A stretch of 36,023 bases of DNA from a virus. Taxonomy: Duplodnaviria; Heunggongvirae; Uroviricota; Caudoviricetes. Shown piece by piece: positions 8,056 to 28,740 of this stretch (position 1 is its first letter; each line of letters opens with the position of its first letter). The stretch lies in IMG/VR virus record IMGVR_UViG_2778261035_000011; one strand, 5' to 3'. Below the pieces are notes generated by a model. The model searched no databases. It was not told the origin of the DNA and saw only the letters and a program-made list of their open reading frames with translations. A program made the translations under genes and the position numbers.

Positions 8056-9182
8056 GGCGGCGTTTTCTCCGGGTGTCTGCGATAATAATCTTCAACCAGC
8101 GCATCAATACCGCCGTTACTGTCGCCGCCTTTCCTGTTTTTACGGTCGCTTTCAACCGGCACCAGAAAGCCTTCGCGTGGTGCAAGGCTGACGCGGGTTT
8201 TCAGCCCGTCCTGGTCATTCAGTATCAGGGTGACTTTGCTGACCAGTAATTCCGTGGTTTTGATGGCATATTTCGAGGCATCAATAGTGACCAGCAGGTT
8301 CGGCATCCAGAGTTGCCCGTCCTTGCGAGTCCATCCGTCAATTTCAGCCTCAAAGGTGATGGATTTTGCCAGTCTGCGGCGTTGCTCACGCAGGGCGCGG
8401 GCCTGTGCATCCTTCGCCGTAATTTTGCTGTCAGCAATGATGATCATCGGTCTGTAACGGGTTACATCACTGTCAGTGGCGGTCCCTTTCCGGGAGACGA
8501 TACTTTTCGCATCAATATCATCACCCTCAGCACCGTTTGCGCGGGCATACCCCTTGACGGTGTATTCGCTGAACCGGTCGCGGAAGTCTTCCTCAAAATC
8601 CAGTGTCAGCAGATTTTCTCCGAGAACCAGCTCATCAGTGGCTGTGCTGGCAGCCCGGCTGAATACCAGCTCTCCTGCGGCATTGCTGGTCATCAGTACA
8701 CCGCGTGCGCGGGAGGCACGCACCAGCGCCTCATAAACGGTTTCTGAATGGTCCAGCGTGAAGCCGGGAAAAGCTGCCGAACTTTCCTTATCGGAAAGCT
8801 CCCAGCGAACGGTAACGCCATAAGGGGCGCACAGGTCACGCGCAATCTGCTCCAGTGTGCGGTTTTTCCACTGTCCGCCACTGTAAACGGCAGCACAGTC
8901 AATCAGGTCAGCCGTTTTGTCACGTCCGGCGACAGTGATTTTCATGCTGTCAGCGGTCATCTGGCGTCGCCGCGAATCGATATAACCGGTGCAGACAATC
9001 TGCCCGTCGATTTCCAGCGTGAACGCCTTCCCCGGTGCCAGCCCGGATAAATCTGTACCCGGTGGCACATTCACCCCCAGCTCAAAATATCCGGCTACGG
9101 ATTCAATGGAGCGGGTGACAGAGACTGACGTCCAGCCGGTAAAAAGCCTGCCATCCGTTCGCAGCGTGACGGTATTACTCAT
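8043..9182 (-). CDS. P: tail protein P (Mu gp44-like, baseplate hub)
   Basis: 379 aa; follows N with short overlap. Confidence 0.75.
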
Positions 9183-10662
9183 TAATCACCTCAATACTGA
9201 CACCACCGGGAACAAACAACGGGTTGCTGATACCGTTCCTGCGGGCCAGCCGTTGCCAGTTCCGGCTGTTTCCTGTGTAACGGTACAGAGCCACCATTGC
9301 AGGCATCGTCTCCGGCAGGCGGTGCGTTTCACTGCCCGCCAGTTGCAGCCCGCGTTTTTCCAGGTCGGCAACAACCAGCAGACGCAGTTGCGTAAGCTGA
9401 ACGCTGTCTGTCGAAAAGCCCTGCTCAGATGCCGTCAGAATGACGGTATCCAGCGCTGCCCCCAGCATGGCGGCTGTTTTTCCGATATCGGACACACTTT
9501 CAAATACCGGGGGCGTGGCTGTACCACTGTCTGAAAAGGATACCTGTGAAAAGCCGCCGTCCGGGGTTATGGCAGTTAACTGTAACTGTCCCTGTGTGAC
9601 GGTAGCGGATGTGCTGCTGGCCCCGCTGGCTGTGCCGGTTGTGGTGGACGGGGCATCCAGTACAGGTGCACGGGCGGCATTATCCATCCGGCGACTGAAA
9701 TCCAGTGCCGCAGTCAGTGCCTGGCTTGCTGCCTCCGCCCGGTATGTCTGTGCTGCTGCCAGCATGACGTAGTTCAGTGTGGCAATATTTTTTTCTGCAA
9801 CCGGACTGTTGTACGAGGTTGTGATTGTCCCCTGTCTGCCTGCGGTGGCGGCATGGCGACGTTCGAATCGCTGCGCCAGACGGTTCCATGTGGAAAATGC
9901 TGTCCGGGTATCGCATAACGATGAAACGCCGGACAGCGCCCCCATCAGCGAGGAGGCCAGCATGGCAGGCTGGTTAATCAGGCTGGTCACAGAGCCTTTC
10001 ATCGCAGAAAGCGATCCCATCAGACCGCTGACAGTCTGCGTAACCCCCAGATTGTCCACCGCATCACTGATATCATCGATGACACCGGTTACAGCTTCCA
10101 TCACGGCGGTTGCCGCCGCAGTGCCATCTTTTACGGTCTGCCAGACAGAGGACAGCGTATCTCCCAGAGAACCGGTTACAGCAACGGCCTGTGCCGGTAC
10201 GGCTGCACTGGTGTCTGTCTCTGCGTCCGGGGCAGTATCCTGCAACGACGGATAAACGGTAACGGTGAACGCGTAATAATTCAGTTCATCCGCTTTAGTG
10301 CGGCATTCCCATGAATCCACCATGACGTCCACAGTGCCGAAATCAGGATGTACCAGCTCACCGCTACCCGGAGCATCAAGAGCATCCATCAGCGCACCCG
10401 CTTCATCTCTGGCTGTTTCTGCGTTGCTGTTCAGAATGCAGGCGCTGAATGTACGGGAGCGAAGCTTTTTCCCCAGGTCATTGACGCCGCCGGTATCACG
10501 TAACGGGTACTCGAGTTTAACCAGGCGACGTCCGCCAGCCTGTTTTTGCTCCTCGATGACGAGAAACGGCACGTTACGAAACGTGCCTTTGCCGGTTGTT
10601 TTCTTACCACCGCTGATTTTATCCCGGACAGCATTAACGGCATTTAAAGCATCTTCAAACAT
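9175..10662 (-). CDS. N: DNA circularization protein N (Mu gp43-like)
   Basis: 495 aa; directly downstream of the tape measure gene, as in Mu. Confidence 0.8.
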
Positions 10663-16748: not shown

Positions 16749-16814
16749 AACACATGCTCCTCCTTTTCCTTTAAATCAGGTTAAAAGGCGGTCTGAACCG
16801 CCTTTTAATGACGG

Positions 16815-26393: not shown

Positions 26394-26461
26394 GCTTCCC
26401 TGAAAAAATGCTCTGATGGCAGTCTAAAAAATCAGATGGCAGGTGCGGGATTATGGTGACA
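26394..26461 (-). promoter_or_regulatory. expected C-dependent late promoter Plys (positional)
   Basis: Non-coding gap between the C terminator hairpin and the lys start; no motif verified. Confidence 0.3.
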
Positions 26462-26488
26462 GGAAATAACCGGCAGGATGCCGGTTAT
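26462..26488 (-). terminator. putative intrinsic terminator at the end of C (end of middle transcript)
   Basis: Hairpin AACCGGCA-GGA-TGCCGGTT overlapping the C stop codon, followed on the minus-strand RNA by UUAUUUCCU. Confidence 0.45.
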
Positions 26489-26907
26489 TTCTGGCTTTCA
26501 GGTGAGAACAGATCAGGCTGATGACGTCGTGTATGCAGCTTTCTCTGGCGGGCAATAATCTGGTAGATCTGCGGCTGGGACAGGCGATACTGGCAACGCA
26601 GTTCTTCCATGTTACGACCATTGAACTGGCAGTAAAGCAAATCGTCGCGTAACGCGGTCAGGATCGTATCGCCGCAGGGGATGTAAAACTGCCGTCCCCC
26701 CAGAAAACAGGACAGGGCAACGGCCTGTTTACGGGCAAGCTCACGGGGATTGCTGACGTTCTGGCGTTTCAGTTCGTTTTCCAGAACATCAATCAGATCA
26801 ACCACCGAACGGGGCCAGCGTGATTCCAGTTCCGGGGCCGGGATGTTATCAATATGTCCGATTAACTGGCGAATTGCCGGATCGTGTTCAAATAAATCAT
26901 GCTGCAT
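26485..26907 (-). CDS. C: late gene transcriptional activator C (Mor/C family)
   Basis: 140 aa; clear paralogue of the Mor ORF at 27700..28089 (shared ...FNGRN..EL...Y..S...IY.I. C-terminal HTH region); immediately upstream of the lysis/late genes. Confidence 0.85.
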   Translation of the reverse strand: MQHDLFEHDPAIRQLIGHIDNIPAPELESRWPRSVVDLIDVLENELKRQNVSNPRELARKQAVALSCFLGGRQFYIPCGDTILTALRDDLLYCQFNGRNMEELRCQYRLSQPQIYQIIARQRKLHTRRHQPDLFSPESQK

Positions 26908-26919
26908 ATTTTCCCCCGG

Positions 26920-27039
26920 TTAACAGACAGAAAGATACACCACGGCACTGATGGTTATCAGAACCACAAGGGCAATCACTTTTATCGCACTCATCAGCGT
27001 GGACGGCCCGAAACATTCATCACTGAATTTTCTGTACAT
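26920..27039 (-). CDS. possible 39-aa single-TM membrane peptide (not in the supplied ORF track)
   Basis: ATG at 27039 with AAGGGG RBS; translation MYRKFSDECFGPSTLMSAIKVIALVVLITISAVVYLSVC; fills the gap between the membrane protein gene and C. Confidence 0.3.
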   Translation of the reverse strand: MYRKFSDECFGPSTLMSAIKVIALVVLITISAVVYLSVC

Positions 27040-27048
27040 GGTGCCCCT

Positions 27049-27411
27049 TTACCCGAACAGACGAGCGCGAAAACGAAAGGAGAGCCAGAACGTCAGCAAT
27101 CCGGCCAGCGCCCAGATGACATGCTCAGGACCCGTTTTCAGTTGAGACGTTACCATCACGGCTAATCCCAGCCCGGACAGACTCCCCAGCCAGGTCAGCG
27201 GCCAGACGAACCGGGCAAAATGTTCAGGCACCCGGCAGCTCATTATCAGCGCATCCAGACAATCACCGGCAACACATAAAGCAACACTGAAAACCGAGGC
27301 ACAGCAAAACATCAGCGCGCGCCAGCCACAAAACAGACTTATCCACAATAACAGCGCCAGTAACACCACCGATAAAAAATCAGGCCACTGACGAGCAGAA
27401 CGCTCAGACAT
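27049..27411 (-). CDS. multi-pass membrane protein in middle operon (holin-like candidate)
   Basis: 120 aa from ATG 27411 (GGGAG RBS); several hydrophobic helices; the track's longer start is a TTG. Confidence 0.5.
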   Translation of the reverse strand: MSERSARQWPDFLSVVLLALLLWISLFCGWRALMFCCASVFSVALCVAGDCLDALIMSCRVPEHFARFVWPLTWLGSLSGLGLAVMVTSQLKTGPEHVIWALAGLLTFWLSFRFRARLFG

Positions 27412-27622
27412 AATGTTTCTCCCTGTAAAGCAGGCAATGATGAAGAATTTCCGGCATATCAACTGACTGCCAGCCTTTCATGTAATAACTGCCGTGGGTG
27501 CCATCATGACCGGTATAGTCGCGGGGCGCAGGACGTGGCCCACCGGCGACACGGTGCAAAACCTCCTGACGCAGCCGCTCACGTCTGCCAAGATGAAAGG
27601 ATGCATTCCAGCCTTTACCCAT
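27404..27622 (-). CDS. hypothetical protein, first gene of middle operon
   Basis: 72 aa; ATG 27622 with GGGGGA RBS; lies just downstream of the early terminator. Confidence 0.45.
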   Translation of the reverse strand: MGKGWNASFHLGRRERLRQEVLHRVAGGPRPAPRDYTGHDGTHGSYYMKGWQSVDMPEILHHCLLYREKHYV

Positions 27623-27669
27623 GATGATTTCCCCCGGTACGGTTATTCATCACAGGATATTGAGGACGT
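27623..27669 (-). promoter_or_regulatory. expected Mor-dependent middle promoter Pm (positional)
   Basis: Short gap between the early-operon terminator and the first middle-operon gene; Mu Pm is recalled to lie just after the early terminator; no motif verified. Confidence 0.35.
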
Positions 27670-27694
27670 AAAAAAAGCCGGATTAACCGGCTTT
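27670..27694 (-). terminator. rho-independent terminator of the early operon, immediately after mor
   Basis: Minus-strand RNA AAAGCCGG-UUAAU-CCGGCUUU followed by a 7-U tract (plus-strand A run 27670-27676); 6 nt downstream of the mor stop. Confidence 0.7.
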
Positions 27695-27699
27695 ACTGT

Positions 27700-28089
27700 T
27701 TACAGAAGTGAGGGCTGGTACTGGCGGTATTTCAGCCGTCGCATCCGGCGAATGGCCTTGTAAACCGTATTGAAAGTGACACCATAACGGGTGGTCAGTT
27801 CGCTGACGTTGCGACCGTTAAAATCATTCCAGATACGCAAATCCCGAATCAGCGAGTCCAGAACCTGACCGCGTGGAATGTAGACCTGACCGCCGCCCAG
27901 ATGCTTACAGATAGCCACAACAATCTCCAGTGAATGGGCAGGATCAACACCCAGCCGGGACAATTCCCCGCGTAGTAAATCGTTCAGCTCCGCCAGCAGT
28001 GCCGGAAAGCGTGACGTATCCTCTGCGGGATTGTCAAGATGTGCCAGGATGGTGTCATCCTGCAAATCACCAAATAAATCTTCCGTCAT
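27700..28089 (-). CDS. mor: middle operon regulator Mor (Mor/C family transcription activator)
   Basis: 129 aa; paralogous to C (26485..26907); last gene before the early terminator, as in Mu. Confidence 0.85.
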   Translation of the reverse strand: MTEDLFGDLQDDTILAHLDNPAEDTSRFPALLAELNDLLRGELSRLGVDPAHSLEIVVAICKHLGGGQVYIPRGQVLDSLIRDLRIWNDFNGRNVSELTTRYGVTFNTVYKAIRRMRRLKYRQYQPSLL

Positions 28090-28637
28090 TGTGCCATCCT
28101 CCGTGTCTTTCTGGCATGGGCATAAGCCGCCGTCATGGCATCATAGCCGCGCAGTTCACGACCGGACGGACTGACCGGCAATGGAAGCCCGTGACGGGAA
28201 AAGGCTTCACGAATACAGCGGATGTGCCACTGCTTGAGTGTTTCGAGGACTGTCAGCAGCGTGTCGCCATGACACCACGCCAGTGTGGAAACGCCCTGTC
28301 CGCCGTTGCGTTTCGCGGTCAGGCGCTGAACATATTTATCCAGCGCCACATCACCGCCATCGGCAATAAAACCGTCTTCTGCCATCTGCTGCCAGATTTT
28401 ATACACCTTCTCACGGGGCGTGACATGCCCCTTAAAGCGGCGACGGGGGTATTTATTCTGCTTCTTAAAGCCGCGTTCTTTCATGGCACCGAGCACCTGT
28501 TCCAGTTGCGTGACCGTCAGCTCGCGGCAACTGATTTTGCCTGTTTTCTGCATCAGAAAAGCGCGGTAAGTGTCATCGTCGAGTTGTAGTTCCCGACGGG
28601 CGACATGGATTAATTTAATCAGGGATGTGCGACTCAT
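28086..28637 (-). CDS. gemA: GemA-like regulatory protein (Mu gp16 family)
   Basis: 183 aa from ATG 28637 (GGAGG RBS); immediately upstream of and overlapping mor, as in Mu. Confidence 0.7.
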   Translation of the reverse strand: MSRTSLIKLIHVARRELQLDDDTYRAFLMQKTGKISCRELTVTQLEQVLGAMKERGFKKQNKYPRRRFKGHVTPREKVYKIWQQMAEDGFIADGGDVALDKYVQRLTAKRNGGQGVSTLAWCHGDTLLTVLETLKQWHIRCIREAFSRHGLPLPVSPSGRELRGYDAMTAAYAHARKTRRMAQ

Positions 28638-28740
28638 GATCGTACCTCCGGAAAGGGGGCGGTGCTGCAACACCGCCTGAATTTACACATCAATCAGAGT
28701 GGATTTTATGGAAAATAATGTTTTAGTTTCATTATTCATA

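What the first reader, a model, noticed from the sequence alone, without database searches (positions are those of the whole stretch)
27623..27700. Strong early-operon terminator immediately after mor, followed by the expected middle promoter
A GC-rich hairpin followed by a 7-U tract lies 6 nt after the mor stop on the coding strand. The next gene starts about 50 bp later, leaving a compact window for the Mor-dependent middle promoter driving three small genes and C.
Basis: seen in the sequence. Interest (0 to 1): 0.4.

Follow-up and report, generated by a model that had tools for sequence, protein, structure and literature searches.

The report
Mu early terminator embedded in Pm
This is the well-studied junction between the early and middle operons of phage Mu: the terminator-like hairpin after mor is real, but it lies inside the Mor-activated middle promoter rather than in front of it, which is already known.

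Summary
The window is a Mu-type phage read in reverse. The mor-to-gene-18 junction is 98.9% identical to Mu and base-identical across all of Pm.

**Observation: confirmed.** On the minus strand, an 8-bp hairpin (AAAGCCGG-TTAAT-CCGGCTTT, 27694..27674) ends in a 7-T run (27676..27670). It starts 5 nt after the mor stop and lies 47 nt before gene 18.

**Interpretation: partly right.**
- Three published anchors (primers JM1 and MLK7, KMnO4 sites) put Pm +1 at 27646 and the -10 hexamer TATCCT at 27659..27654.
- The 16-bp Mor site is at 27697..27682, and the UP subsite sits over the mor stop codon.
- The hairpin plus T-run therefore spans Pm -48 to -24. The terminator lies within the promoter, and the roughly 50-bp gap holds only the -10, the start site and a 24-nt leader.
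- The Mu GenBank record already annotates both features as overlapping.

**Comparison with relatives.** In 100 related loci the 19-mer GCCGGTWAATCCGGCTTTT is exact, and it keeps a fixed spacing to invariant -10 bases (A-12, T-8). The flanks are unrelated. In many loci a cargo gene separates mor from the module.

**Limits.** Termination itself is inferred; I could reach no 3'-end data. "Strong" is unproven, since the GC core is only 5 bp. The finding is already known and of low interest.

The parts
27700..28089 (-). mor (gene 17), the activator of Pm and the last gene of the Mu early operon
   Evidence: 129-aa ORF. Pfam PF08765 Mor, E = 4e-33. Corresponds to AF083977 8781..9170, 'middle operon regulator'.
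27705..27707 (-). Pm -61..-59, the published RNAP alpha-CTD footprint; lies inside the last codons of mor
   Evidence: Footprint positions from PMC4390567 and PMC4287176, mapped using +1 = 27646.
27698..27703 (-). Pm -57..-52, GTAAAC: proximal UP-element subsite; contains the mor stop codon TAA (27702..27700)
   Evidence: PMC4390567 Table 3 gives wild-type -57..-52 as G T A A A C, and primer JM1 spans -87..-48. The sequence is identical in the window.
27682..27697 (-). Pm -51..-36, AGTAA-AGCCGG-TTAAT: 16-bp Mor dimer binding site centred at -43.5
   Evidence: Described as two 5-bp inverted repeats around a G/C-rich hexamer, centred at -43.5. Mapped. The Mor footprint -56..-33 corresponds to 27702..27679.
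27674..27694 (-). Terminator-like hairpin AAAGCCGG-TTAAT-CCGGCTTT (Pm -48..-28). The 5' arm is the spacer of the Mor site, the loop is the right Mor half-site, and the 3' arm occupies the -35 region.
   Evidence: The TransTermHP terminator in AF083977 (9179..9200) corresponds to window 27691..27670.
27670..27676 (-). T7 run (Pm -30..-24): U-tract of the terminator and T-tract of the Pm spacer
   Evidence: T at -27..-24 is invariant in 52 of 52 distinct related sequences; of these, -26..-24 lie outside the search pattern.
27654..27659 (-). Pm -10 hexamer TATCCT (-13..-8)
   Evidence: Position follows from the numbering anchors. A-12 and T-8 are invariant in 52 of 52 distinct relatives. The scan finds no sigma-70 -35/-10 pair here, consistent with dependence on an activator.
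27646..27646 (-). Pm transcription start (+1, A)
   Evidence: Primer MLK7 (+10..-9) matches 27637..27655. The KMnO4-reactive bottom-strand T at -12, -4, -1, +1, +3 and +4 all fall on top-strand A. The AF083977 Pm feature 9163..9233 equals -61..+10.
27623..27645 (-). Rest of the middle-transcript leader (24 nt counting the +1 base) with a G-rich RBS (GGGGG at 27635..27631); one G/A difference from Mu at 27631
   Evidence: The leader has no significant structure.
27404..27622 (-). gene 18 (72 aa), first gene of the middle operon
   Evidence: corresponds to AF083977 Mu_18.
27049..27411 (-). gene 19 (120 aa, membrane protein)
   Evidence: Corresponds to AF083977 Mu_19, 9459..9821; ORF.
26920..27039 (-). 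gene 20 (39 aa, membrane protein)
   Evidence: corresponds to AF083977 Mu_20.
26485..26907 (-). C, the late-gene activator and last gene of the middle operon
   Evidence: Pfam Mor family, E = 1e-32; corresponds to AF083977 Mu_21.

Best explanation
The segment is the Mu early/middle operon boundary. One stretch of about 27 bp is used in two ways.

**As RNA.** On transcripts coming from the early promoter Pe through mor, the segment forms a GC-stem hairpin followed by U7. This is an intrinsic terminator. It should release RNA polymerase at about Pm -24..-22 (27670..27668), just upstream of the Pm -10 hexamer. Genes 18-20 and C are then not expressed by read-through.

**As DNA.** The same bases form the upstream half of the activator-dependent sigma-70 promoter Pm:
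- the Mor dimer binds -51..-36, which is the 5' arm plus the loop;
- the alpha-CTD binds the A/T-rich -57..-52 that overlaps the mor stop codon;
- the 3' arm and T-tract fill the position of the missing -35 element and the spacer;
- TATCCT at -13..-8 is the -10 hexamer, and transcription starts at 27646.

Because +1 lies downstream of the hairpin, middle transcripts do not contain the terminator.

**Shown versus inferred.** The Pm map is shown by published experiments on an identical sequence. Termination, and its role as an insulator, are inferred.
For: - **Identity to Mu.** The region is 98.9% identical to Mu over 2.3 kb and identical across -98..+15 of Pm.
- **Numbering fixed by independent anchors.** These are primer JM1 and Table 3, primer MLK7 and the six KMnO4 positions. 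The AF083977 Pm feature equals -61..+10.
- **Published Pm properties.** A Mor site centred at -43.5, a Mor footprint at -56..-33, no -35 element, and absolute dependence on Mor.
- **Terminator motif.**. TransTermHP predicted it independently in AF083977, inside the Pm feature.
- **Comparison across 100 loci (52 distinct sequences analysed).**
  - Every fetched locus with Mor identity of 56% or more that extends past the mor stop has the exact 19-mer (L104 stops 3 bases after it). The flanks are about 32-43% identical.
  - Positions outside the search pattern are invariant: A-51, A-47, A-46, T-26..-24, G-21, A-12 and T-8.
  - The module always lies 7-34 nt after a same-strand stop codon and 47-64 nt before the next gene. 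This holds whether the upstream gene is mor or an unrelated cargo ORF. An operon-boundary terminator/promoter cassette would be expected to behave this way.
- **Symmetry argument.** The perfect hairpin symmetry is centred at -38 and the Mor dyad at -43.5. Mor binding alone therefore does not explain the 8-bp complementarity.
Against: - No 3'-end or read-through data were accessible, so termination and its efficiency are not demonstrated here.
- The GC core is short (5 bp, -8.3 kcal/mol).
- Both stem arms are invariant, so there is no covariation evidence for an RNA structure. The only change is A-U to G-U at -48/-28.
- The invariance of the 3' arm and T-tract could be explained by promoter function alone. 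From memory, spacer mutations at the T-tract/GC junction are reported to affect Pm.
- The mor stop codon is only 5-8 nt from the stem, so a terminating ribosome could transiently hinder hairpin formation.
Confidence: 0.8

Rival explanations
1. The element is a promoter element only. The dyad and T-tract exist solely as Pm DNA (Mor site, -35-region substitute and a rigid T-tract spacer). The resemblance to a terminator is a by-product, and early transcripts read through or end elsewhere.
For: - The module keeps a fixed register with the invariant -10 bases, not with mor.
- There are no compensatory stem changes.
- All published functional data that I could read concern promoter activity.
Against: - Mor needs only -51..-36, and its symmetry centre (-43.5) differs from that of the hairpin (-38).
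- Perfect 8-bp complementarity plus U7 is rare in this genome: 2 instances in 36 kb.
- The module always sits directly after a gene end on the coding strand.
- TransTermHP calls it a terminator.
Confidence: 0.12
2. One reading: a stand-alone strong terminator, with the whole Mor-dependent promoter packed into the ~50 bp between the T-run and gene 18.
For: The -10 hexamer and +1 do lie in that gap.
Against: - The Mor site, the Mor footprint and the UP subsite all map upstream of and onto the hairpin.
- The gap holds only -23..+24.
- No -35-like element or second dyad is present in the gap.
Confidence: 0.03
3. A bidirectional terminator that also stops antisense (window + strand) transcription entering the early region.
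For: An A7 run precedes the hairpin on the + strand, and the + strand RNA also folds (-13.3 kcal/mol).
Against: On the + strand the stem is followed by only UUUAC. No + strand genes or promoters are known or predicted nearby.
Confidence: 0.05

Closest known systems
Phage Mu middle promoter Pm (Mor-dependent, sigma-70; Howe laboratory)
   Same: Base-for-base identical from at least -98 to +15. It has the same Mor site, UP subsite, -10 hexamer and +1, and the same downstream genes 18, 19, 20 and C.
   Different: One G/A difference at +16 (27631) in the leader/RBS. The element is otherwise the same.
Terminator annotated in the Mu genome record AF083977 (9179..9200, TransTermHP). From memory, the early-operon terminator is called t9.2 in the older Mu literature; I could not verify this name.
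   Same: Same sequence and position: window 27691..27670, which is the GC core plus T7.
   Different: None in sequence. The experimental basis could not be read here, as the papers are not held.
Mu C-to-Plys junction in the same window
   Same: An activator gene (C) ends in a hairpin (26495..26464, -19.9 kcal/mol) that abuts or overlaps the promoter activated by that gene's product.
   Different: There the hairpin overlaps the stop codon and only the first 4 bp of the annotated promoter. Its U-tract is poor.
Class II activator-dependent promoters (activator site overlapping -35, for example CRP at -41.5)
   Same: The activator dimer is centred near -43.5 and replaces the -35 element, with alpha-CTD bound just upstream.
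   Different: The activator is a Mor/C-family protein, and the site is co-encoded with a terminator hairpin.

Membership tests
Intrinsic (Rho-independent) terminator | G+C-rich stem-loop in the transcript | tested here: met
   8-bp stem with 5 G-C pairs and a 5-nt loop. Energy is -11.7 kcal/mol; z = -4.0 against shuffles.
Intrinsic (Rho-independent) terminator | U-rich tract immediately 3' of the stem | tested here: met
   Seven consecutive T directly after the GC core (27676..27670).
Intrinsic (Rho-independent) terminator | Located downstream of a gene end on the transcribed strand | tested here: met
   5 nt after the mor stop in the window. In 100 related loci it lies 7-34 nt after a same-strand stop, apart from one locus with a tandem duplication of the module.
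Intrinsic (Rho-independent) terminator | Evolutionary support for base pairing (compensatory changes) | tested here: inconclusive
   Both arms are invariant in 52 distinct sequences. The only change is A-U to G-U at -48/-28.
Intrinsic (Rho-independent) terminator | Transcript 3' ends, or reduced read-through, at the site | not testable with these tools
   No RNA data are available, and the primary papers are not held.
Mu Pm (Mor-dependent middle promoter) | 16-bp Mor dyad centred at -43.5 relative to the start site | tested here: met
   AGTAAAGCCGGTTAAT at 27697..27682, identical to Mu. The numbering rests.
Mu Pm (Mor-dependent middle promoter) | A recognisable -10 hexamer, with no -35 and no extended -10 | tested here: met
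   TATCCT at -13..-8. The -35 region is CCGGCT. The sigma-70 scan finds no promoter here. This agrees with the published description.
Mu Pm (Mor-dependent middle promoter) | Cognate Mor activator encoded upstream | tested here: met
   The mor ORF matches Pfam PF08765 at E = 4e-33.
Mu Pm (Mor-dependent middle promoter) | Mor-dependent initiation at +1 | not testable with these tools
   Inherited from Mu experiments on an identical sequence.
Bidirectional terminator | U-tract on both strands | tested here: not met
   The + strand hairpin is followed by only UUUAC.
Any Rfam RNA family | Covariance-model score at or above the gathering threshold | tested here: not met
   The only hit is sroD at 20.3 bits against a 50-bit threshold, E = 0.21.

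The most novel reading that the evidence does not exclude
The hairpin/T-tract cassette may be a deliberately dual-coded switch rather than two overlapping signals. Three versions of this reading are not excluded:
- Mor bound at -51..-36 alters the fate of Pe-derived polymerases, acting as a roadblock or changing termination.
- The perfect dyad adopts an alternative DNA structure on replicating or supercoiled templates, which would contribute to the reported dependence of Pm on replication.
- The invariant ~30-bp cassette serves as the recombination joint that lets enterobacterial Mu-like phages swap early and middle modules and insert cargo genes between mor and the terminator.
Probability: 0.07. 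Interest if true: 0.5.

Novelty: already known. Interest (0 to 1): 0.15.

Why it matters
It matters mainly for correct annotation. The mor-to-gene-18 intergenic region of Mu-type phages should not be read as 'terminator, then promoter'. It is one overlapping cassette in which the Mor site and the UP element reach back over the hairpin and the mor stop codon.

A terminator upstream of the -10 hexamer would explain how C, and through it all late genes, stays dependent on Mor rather than on read-through from Pe.

The comparative result is a small addition. The cassette is invariant and portable across enterobacterial Mu-like phages, and cargo genes can be inserted between mor and it. This is useful for locating middle promoters in prophages.

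Tried and rejected
- **Primary papers.** I tried to read those that should document the early-transcript 3' end and the Pm spacer: PMID 8602357/PMC145667, PMC210775, PMC208440, PMC177842, PMC38441 and PMC4486318. None are held.
- **Text searches.** Searches for 't9.2', Mu RNA-seq and early-operon terminators found nothing usable.
- **Alternative numbering.** GTAAA occurs twice. Assigning -57..-53 to the second copy would put +1 at about 27639, with 'TGATGA' as the -10. I rejected this because primer JM1, primer MLK7 and the KMnO4 sites all fit only the first copy.
- **Covariation.** A covariation test of the stem is impossible because the arms are invariant.
- **Genome scan.** The genome-contig scan returned only 7 loci. 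The viral-contig scan was more useful.
- **Rfam.** Only a sub-threshold chance hit.
- **Bidirectional terminator.** Considered and rejected.

Full report
**Identity of the region.** The minus strand of the window around the finding carries, in order:
- GemA (28086..28673);
- a 129-aa Mor (27700..28089);
- a 72-aa ORF (27404..27622);
- a 120-aa and a 39-aa membrane ORF;
- a 140-aa Mor-family protein (26485..26907).

Megablast of 26400..28700 gives 98.9% identity over its full length to Escherichia phage Mu (AF083977 8171..10470), with D108, SfMu and several Yersinia Mu-like phages next. The conversion is Mu coordinate = 36870 minus window coordinate. An alignment of the junction shows the window is identical to Mu from inside mor to +15 of the middle transcript, with one G/A difference at 27631. 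Experimental maps made on Mu therefore transfer base for base.

**The observation.** The minus strand reads CTG-TAA(mor stop, 27702..27700)-ACAGT-AAAGCCGG-TTAAT-CCGGCTTT-TTTT-ACG.
- The consensus scan reports the hairpin at 27694..27674 with 8 pairs (5 G-C) and a 5-nt loop.
- The run of seven T spans 27676..27670.
- The RNA folds at -8.3 kcal/mol for the GC core, -11.7 for the 8-bp stem and -14.0 in a 46-nt context. The 46-nt context gives z = -4.0, and none of 200 shuffles fold as well.
- Only one other perfect hairpin with at least 5 G-C pairs followed by TTTT exists in the 36-kb window.
Five nt intervene before the stem, and 47 nt lie between the T-run and the ATG at 27622.

**Where the promoter really is.** Howe-laboratory papers on Pm give sequence anchors that I could match directly.
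- Primer JM1 (-87..-48, GAAATACCGCCAGTACCAGCCCTCACTTCTNTAAANAGTA) and Table 3 (-57..-52 = GTAAAC) of PMC4390567 place -57 at 27703.
- Primer MLK7 (+10..-9; reverse complement CTGTGATGAATAACCGTAC) matches 27655..27637.
- The KMnO4-reactive bottom-strand T at -12, -4, -1, +1, +3 and +4 (PMC4287176) all fall on top-strand A when +1 = 27646.
- The Pm feature of AF083977 (9163..9233) corresponds exactly to -61..+10.

With this numbering:

| Element | Pm positions | Window coordinates |
|---|---|---|
| alpha-CTD footprint | -61..-59 | 27707..27705 (inside mor) |
| Proximal UP subsite, GTAAAC (contains the mor stop codon) | -57..-52 | 27703..27698 |
| Mor dimer site, AGTAA-AGCCGG-TTAAT (centre -43.5) | -51..-36 | 27697..27682 |
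| Mor DNase footprint | -56..-33 | 27702..27679 |
| Hairpin | -48..-28 | 27694..27674 |
| T7 run | -30..-24 | 27676..27670 |
| -10 hexamer, TATCCT | -13..-8 | 27659..27654 |
| Leader before the gene 18 ATG | +1..+24 | 27646..27623 |

The published description (a -10 but no -35 and no extended -10, with absolute Mor dependence) fits the absence of any sigma-70 promoter call in this interval.

The terminator is therefore not upstream of Pm. It is embedded in it. The 5' arm is the G/C-rich spacer of the Mor site, the loop is the right Mor half-site, and the 3' arm plus T-tract occupy the -35 and spacer region. The Mu GenBank record already shows this overlap, with the TransTermHP terminator at 9179..9200 (window 27691..27670) inside the Pm feature.

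**Comparative evidence.** I collected mor loci by protein similarity.
- The exact 19-mer GCCGGTWAATCCGGCTTTT is present in 102 of the 119 loci held, two of which are the Mu records themselves. That includes every locus whose Mor is at least 56% identical and that extends past the mor stop.
- It is absent from loci with Mor at 51% identity or less (L110, L112-L119, L026-27), from L035-39, and from L104, which ends 3 bases after the mor stop.
- Among 52 distinct 160-mers, mean pairwise identity is 0.32 upstream of -58 and 0.37-0.43 downstream of -7. It is 0.86 at -51..-46 and 0.85 at -26..-21, both outside the search pattern.
- A-51, A-47, A-46, T-26..-24, G-21, A-12 and T-8 are invariant. A-12 and T-8 are the two key bases of a -10 hexamer, so the hairpin keeps a fixed register with the promoter core in all lineages.
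- The left Mor half-site drifts (AGTAA, AATGA, AGTGA, AAGGA) and the right half varies TTAAT/TAAAT, while the stem and T7 never change.
- The stem shows no compensatory changes. The only change is A-U to G-U at its outermost pair.

**The module is not tied to mor.**
- In Mu, D108-like phages and one large group (L028-32, L063-73, L079), the module follows the mor stop by 7-8 nt, measured to the G at -45.
- In many other lineages (L033-34, L074-78, L080-111), the mor stop abuts or overlaps an extra ORF of about 110-180 aa. These ORFs are unrelated between groups. The module lies 350-560 bp further on, 9-34 nt after that ORF's stop.
- In every case a same-strand gene follows 47-64 nt after the T-run. 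In most lineages this is a PF05838-type lysozyme rather than gene 18.

The cassette therefore consistently marks an operon boundary, as expected of a combined terminator/promoter unit.

**Mechanism.** The following is shown by published work on an identical sequence: Mor binds -51..-36, the alpha-CTD binds just upstream, and RNAP initiates at +1 only with Mor.

The following is inferred.
- Transcripts from Pe that run through mor form the hairpin and end in the U-tract at about -24..-22. This releases polymerase before it reaches the -10 hexamer, so genes 18-20 and C depend on Mor rather than on read-through.
- Pm transcripts start downstream of the hairpin and are not subject to it.
- The argument that the hairpin is selected as such, and not only as promoter DNA, is geometric. 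Its perfect symmetry is centred at -38, whereas the Mor dyad is centred at -43.5. Mor binding does not require the 8-bp complementarity.

Against a confident 'strong terminator': the GC core is 5 bp, there are no accessible 3'-end data, and the stop codon is close enough (5-8 nt) for a terminating ribosome to interfere transiently. From memory, which I could not verify here, the older Mu literature names an early-operon terminator at about 9.2 kb and reports that mutations at the T-tract/GC junction of the Pm spacer affect activation. If the second point is right, promoter function alone could also explain the invariance of the 3' arm.

**Rivals.** A promoter-only reading (about 0.12) cannot be excluded without RNA data. 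A bidirectional terminator is unlikely because the + strand hairpin is followed by only UUU. Rfam has nothing here.

**Verdict.** The feature is real. Its gene context is correctly identified, but its geometry was mis-stated. It is already known and already annotated in the Mu reference record, so interest is low. The only modest addition is the comparative finding that the cassette is invariant and portable across enterobacterial Mu-like phages.

Noticed in passing
window 26464..26495 (minus strand): At the C-to-Plys junction a 13-bp hairpin (GAAATAACCGGCA-UCC-UGCCGGUUAUUUC, -19.9 kcal/mol, z = -6.1) overlaps the C stop codon. It abuts the annotated C-dependent Plys promoter. The layout is the same 'activator gene, hairpin, its own target promoter', but the U-tract is poor.
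   Followed up: partly
window 16787..16802 (both strands): This is the only other perfect hairpin in the window with at least 5 G-C pairs followed by TTTT, and it is followed by TTTT on both strands (GGCGGTCTGAACCGCC). It may be a bidirectional terminator in the late region, at about Mu coordinate 20.07 kb.
   Followed up: no
L033-34, L074-78, L080-111 (for example L075 1579..2100, L080 1582..2130): In many Mu-like phages, a lineage-specific ORF of about 110-180 aa sits between mor and the conserved terminator/Pm cassette. Several begin with hydrophobic, signal-peptide-like sequences. The ORFs are unrelated between groups and resemble moron-type cargo placed in the early operon.
   Followed up: partly
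L023 / L060 (IMGVR_UViG_2531839192_000008), about 41 bp after the mor stop: There is a partial tandem duplication of the hairpin/T-tract/spacer module: ...GCCGGTTAATCCGGGAATCCGGCTTTTTTTACGCCCTCAAT|GCCGGTTAATCCGGCTTTTTTTACGCCCTCAATATTCTG. Only the second copy keeps the spacing to the -10, and that copy lacks the left Mor half-site.
   Followed up: no
L114-L117, L027/L115 (Mor-like, ~35% identity), first ~85 nt after the stop: A different conserved long hairpin (AAAAGCACAAT ... GGTTGTGCTTTT with an inner variable stem; 17 predicted pairs, one compensatory) ends in a T-run that directly abuts the next gene's ATG. No room is left for a downstream promoter. A conserved TTAATTCA motif lies just after the stop.
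   Followed up: partly
window 27631: This is the single difference from Mu in the junction: G here versus A in Mu, at +16 of the middle-transcript leader within the G-rich RBS (GGGGG versus GGGGA). Both variants occur among IMG/VR relatives.
   Followed up: no
L037, L039 (downstream of the Mor/C-family match): These two genome loci look like C orthologues rather than Mor orthologues. Their downstream sequence (..CCATAATCCC..N..TTTTTTA..) resembles Mu Plys.
   Followed up: no
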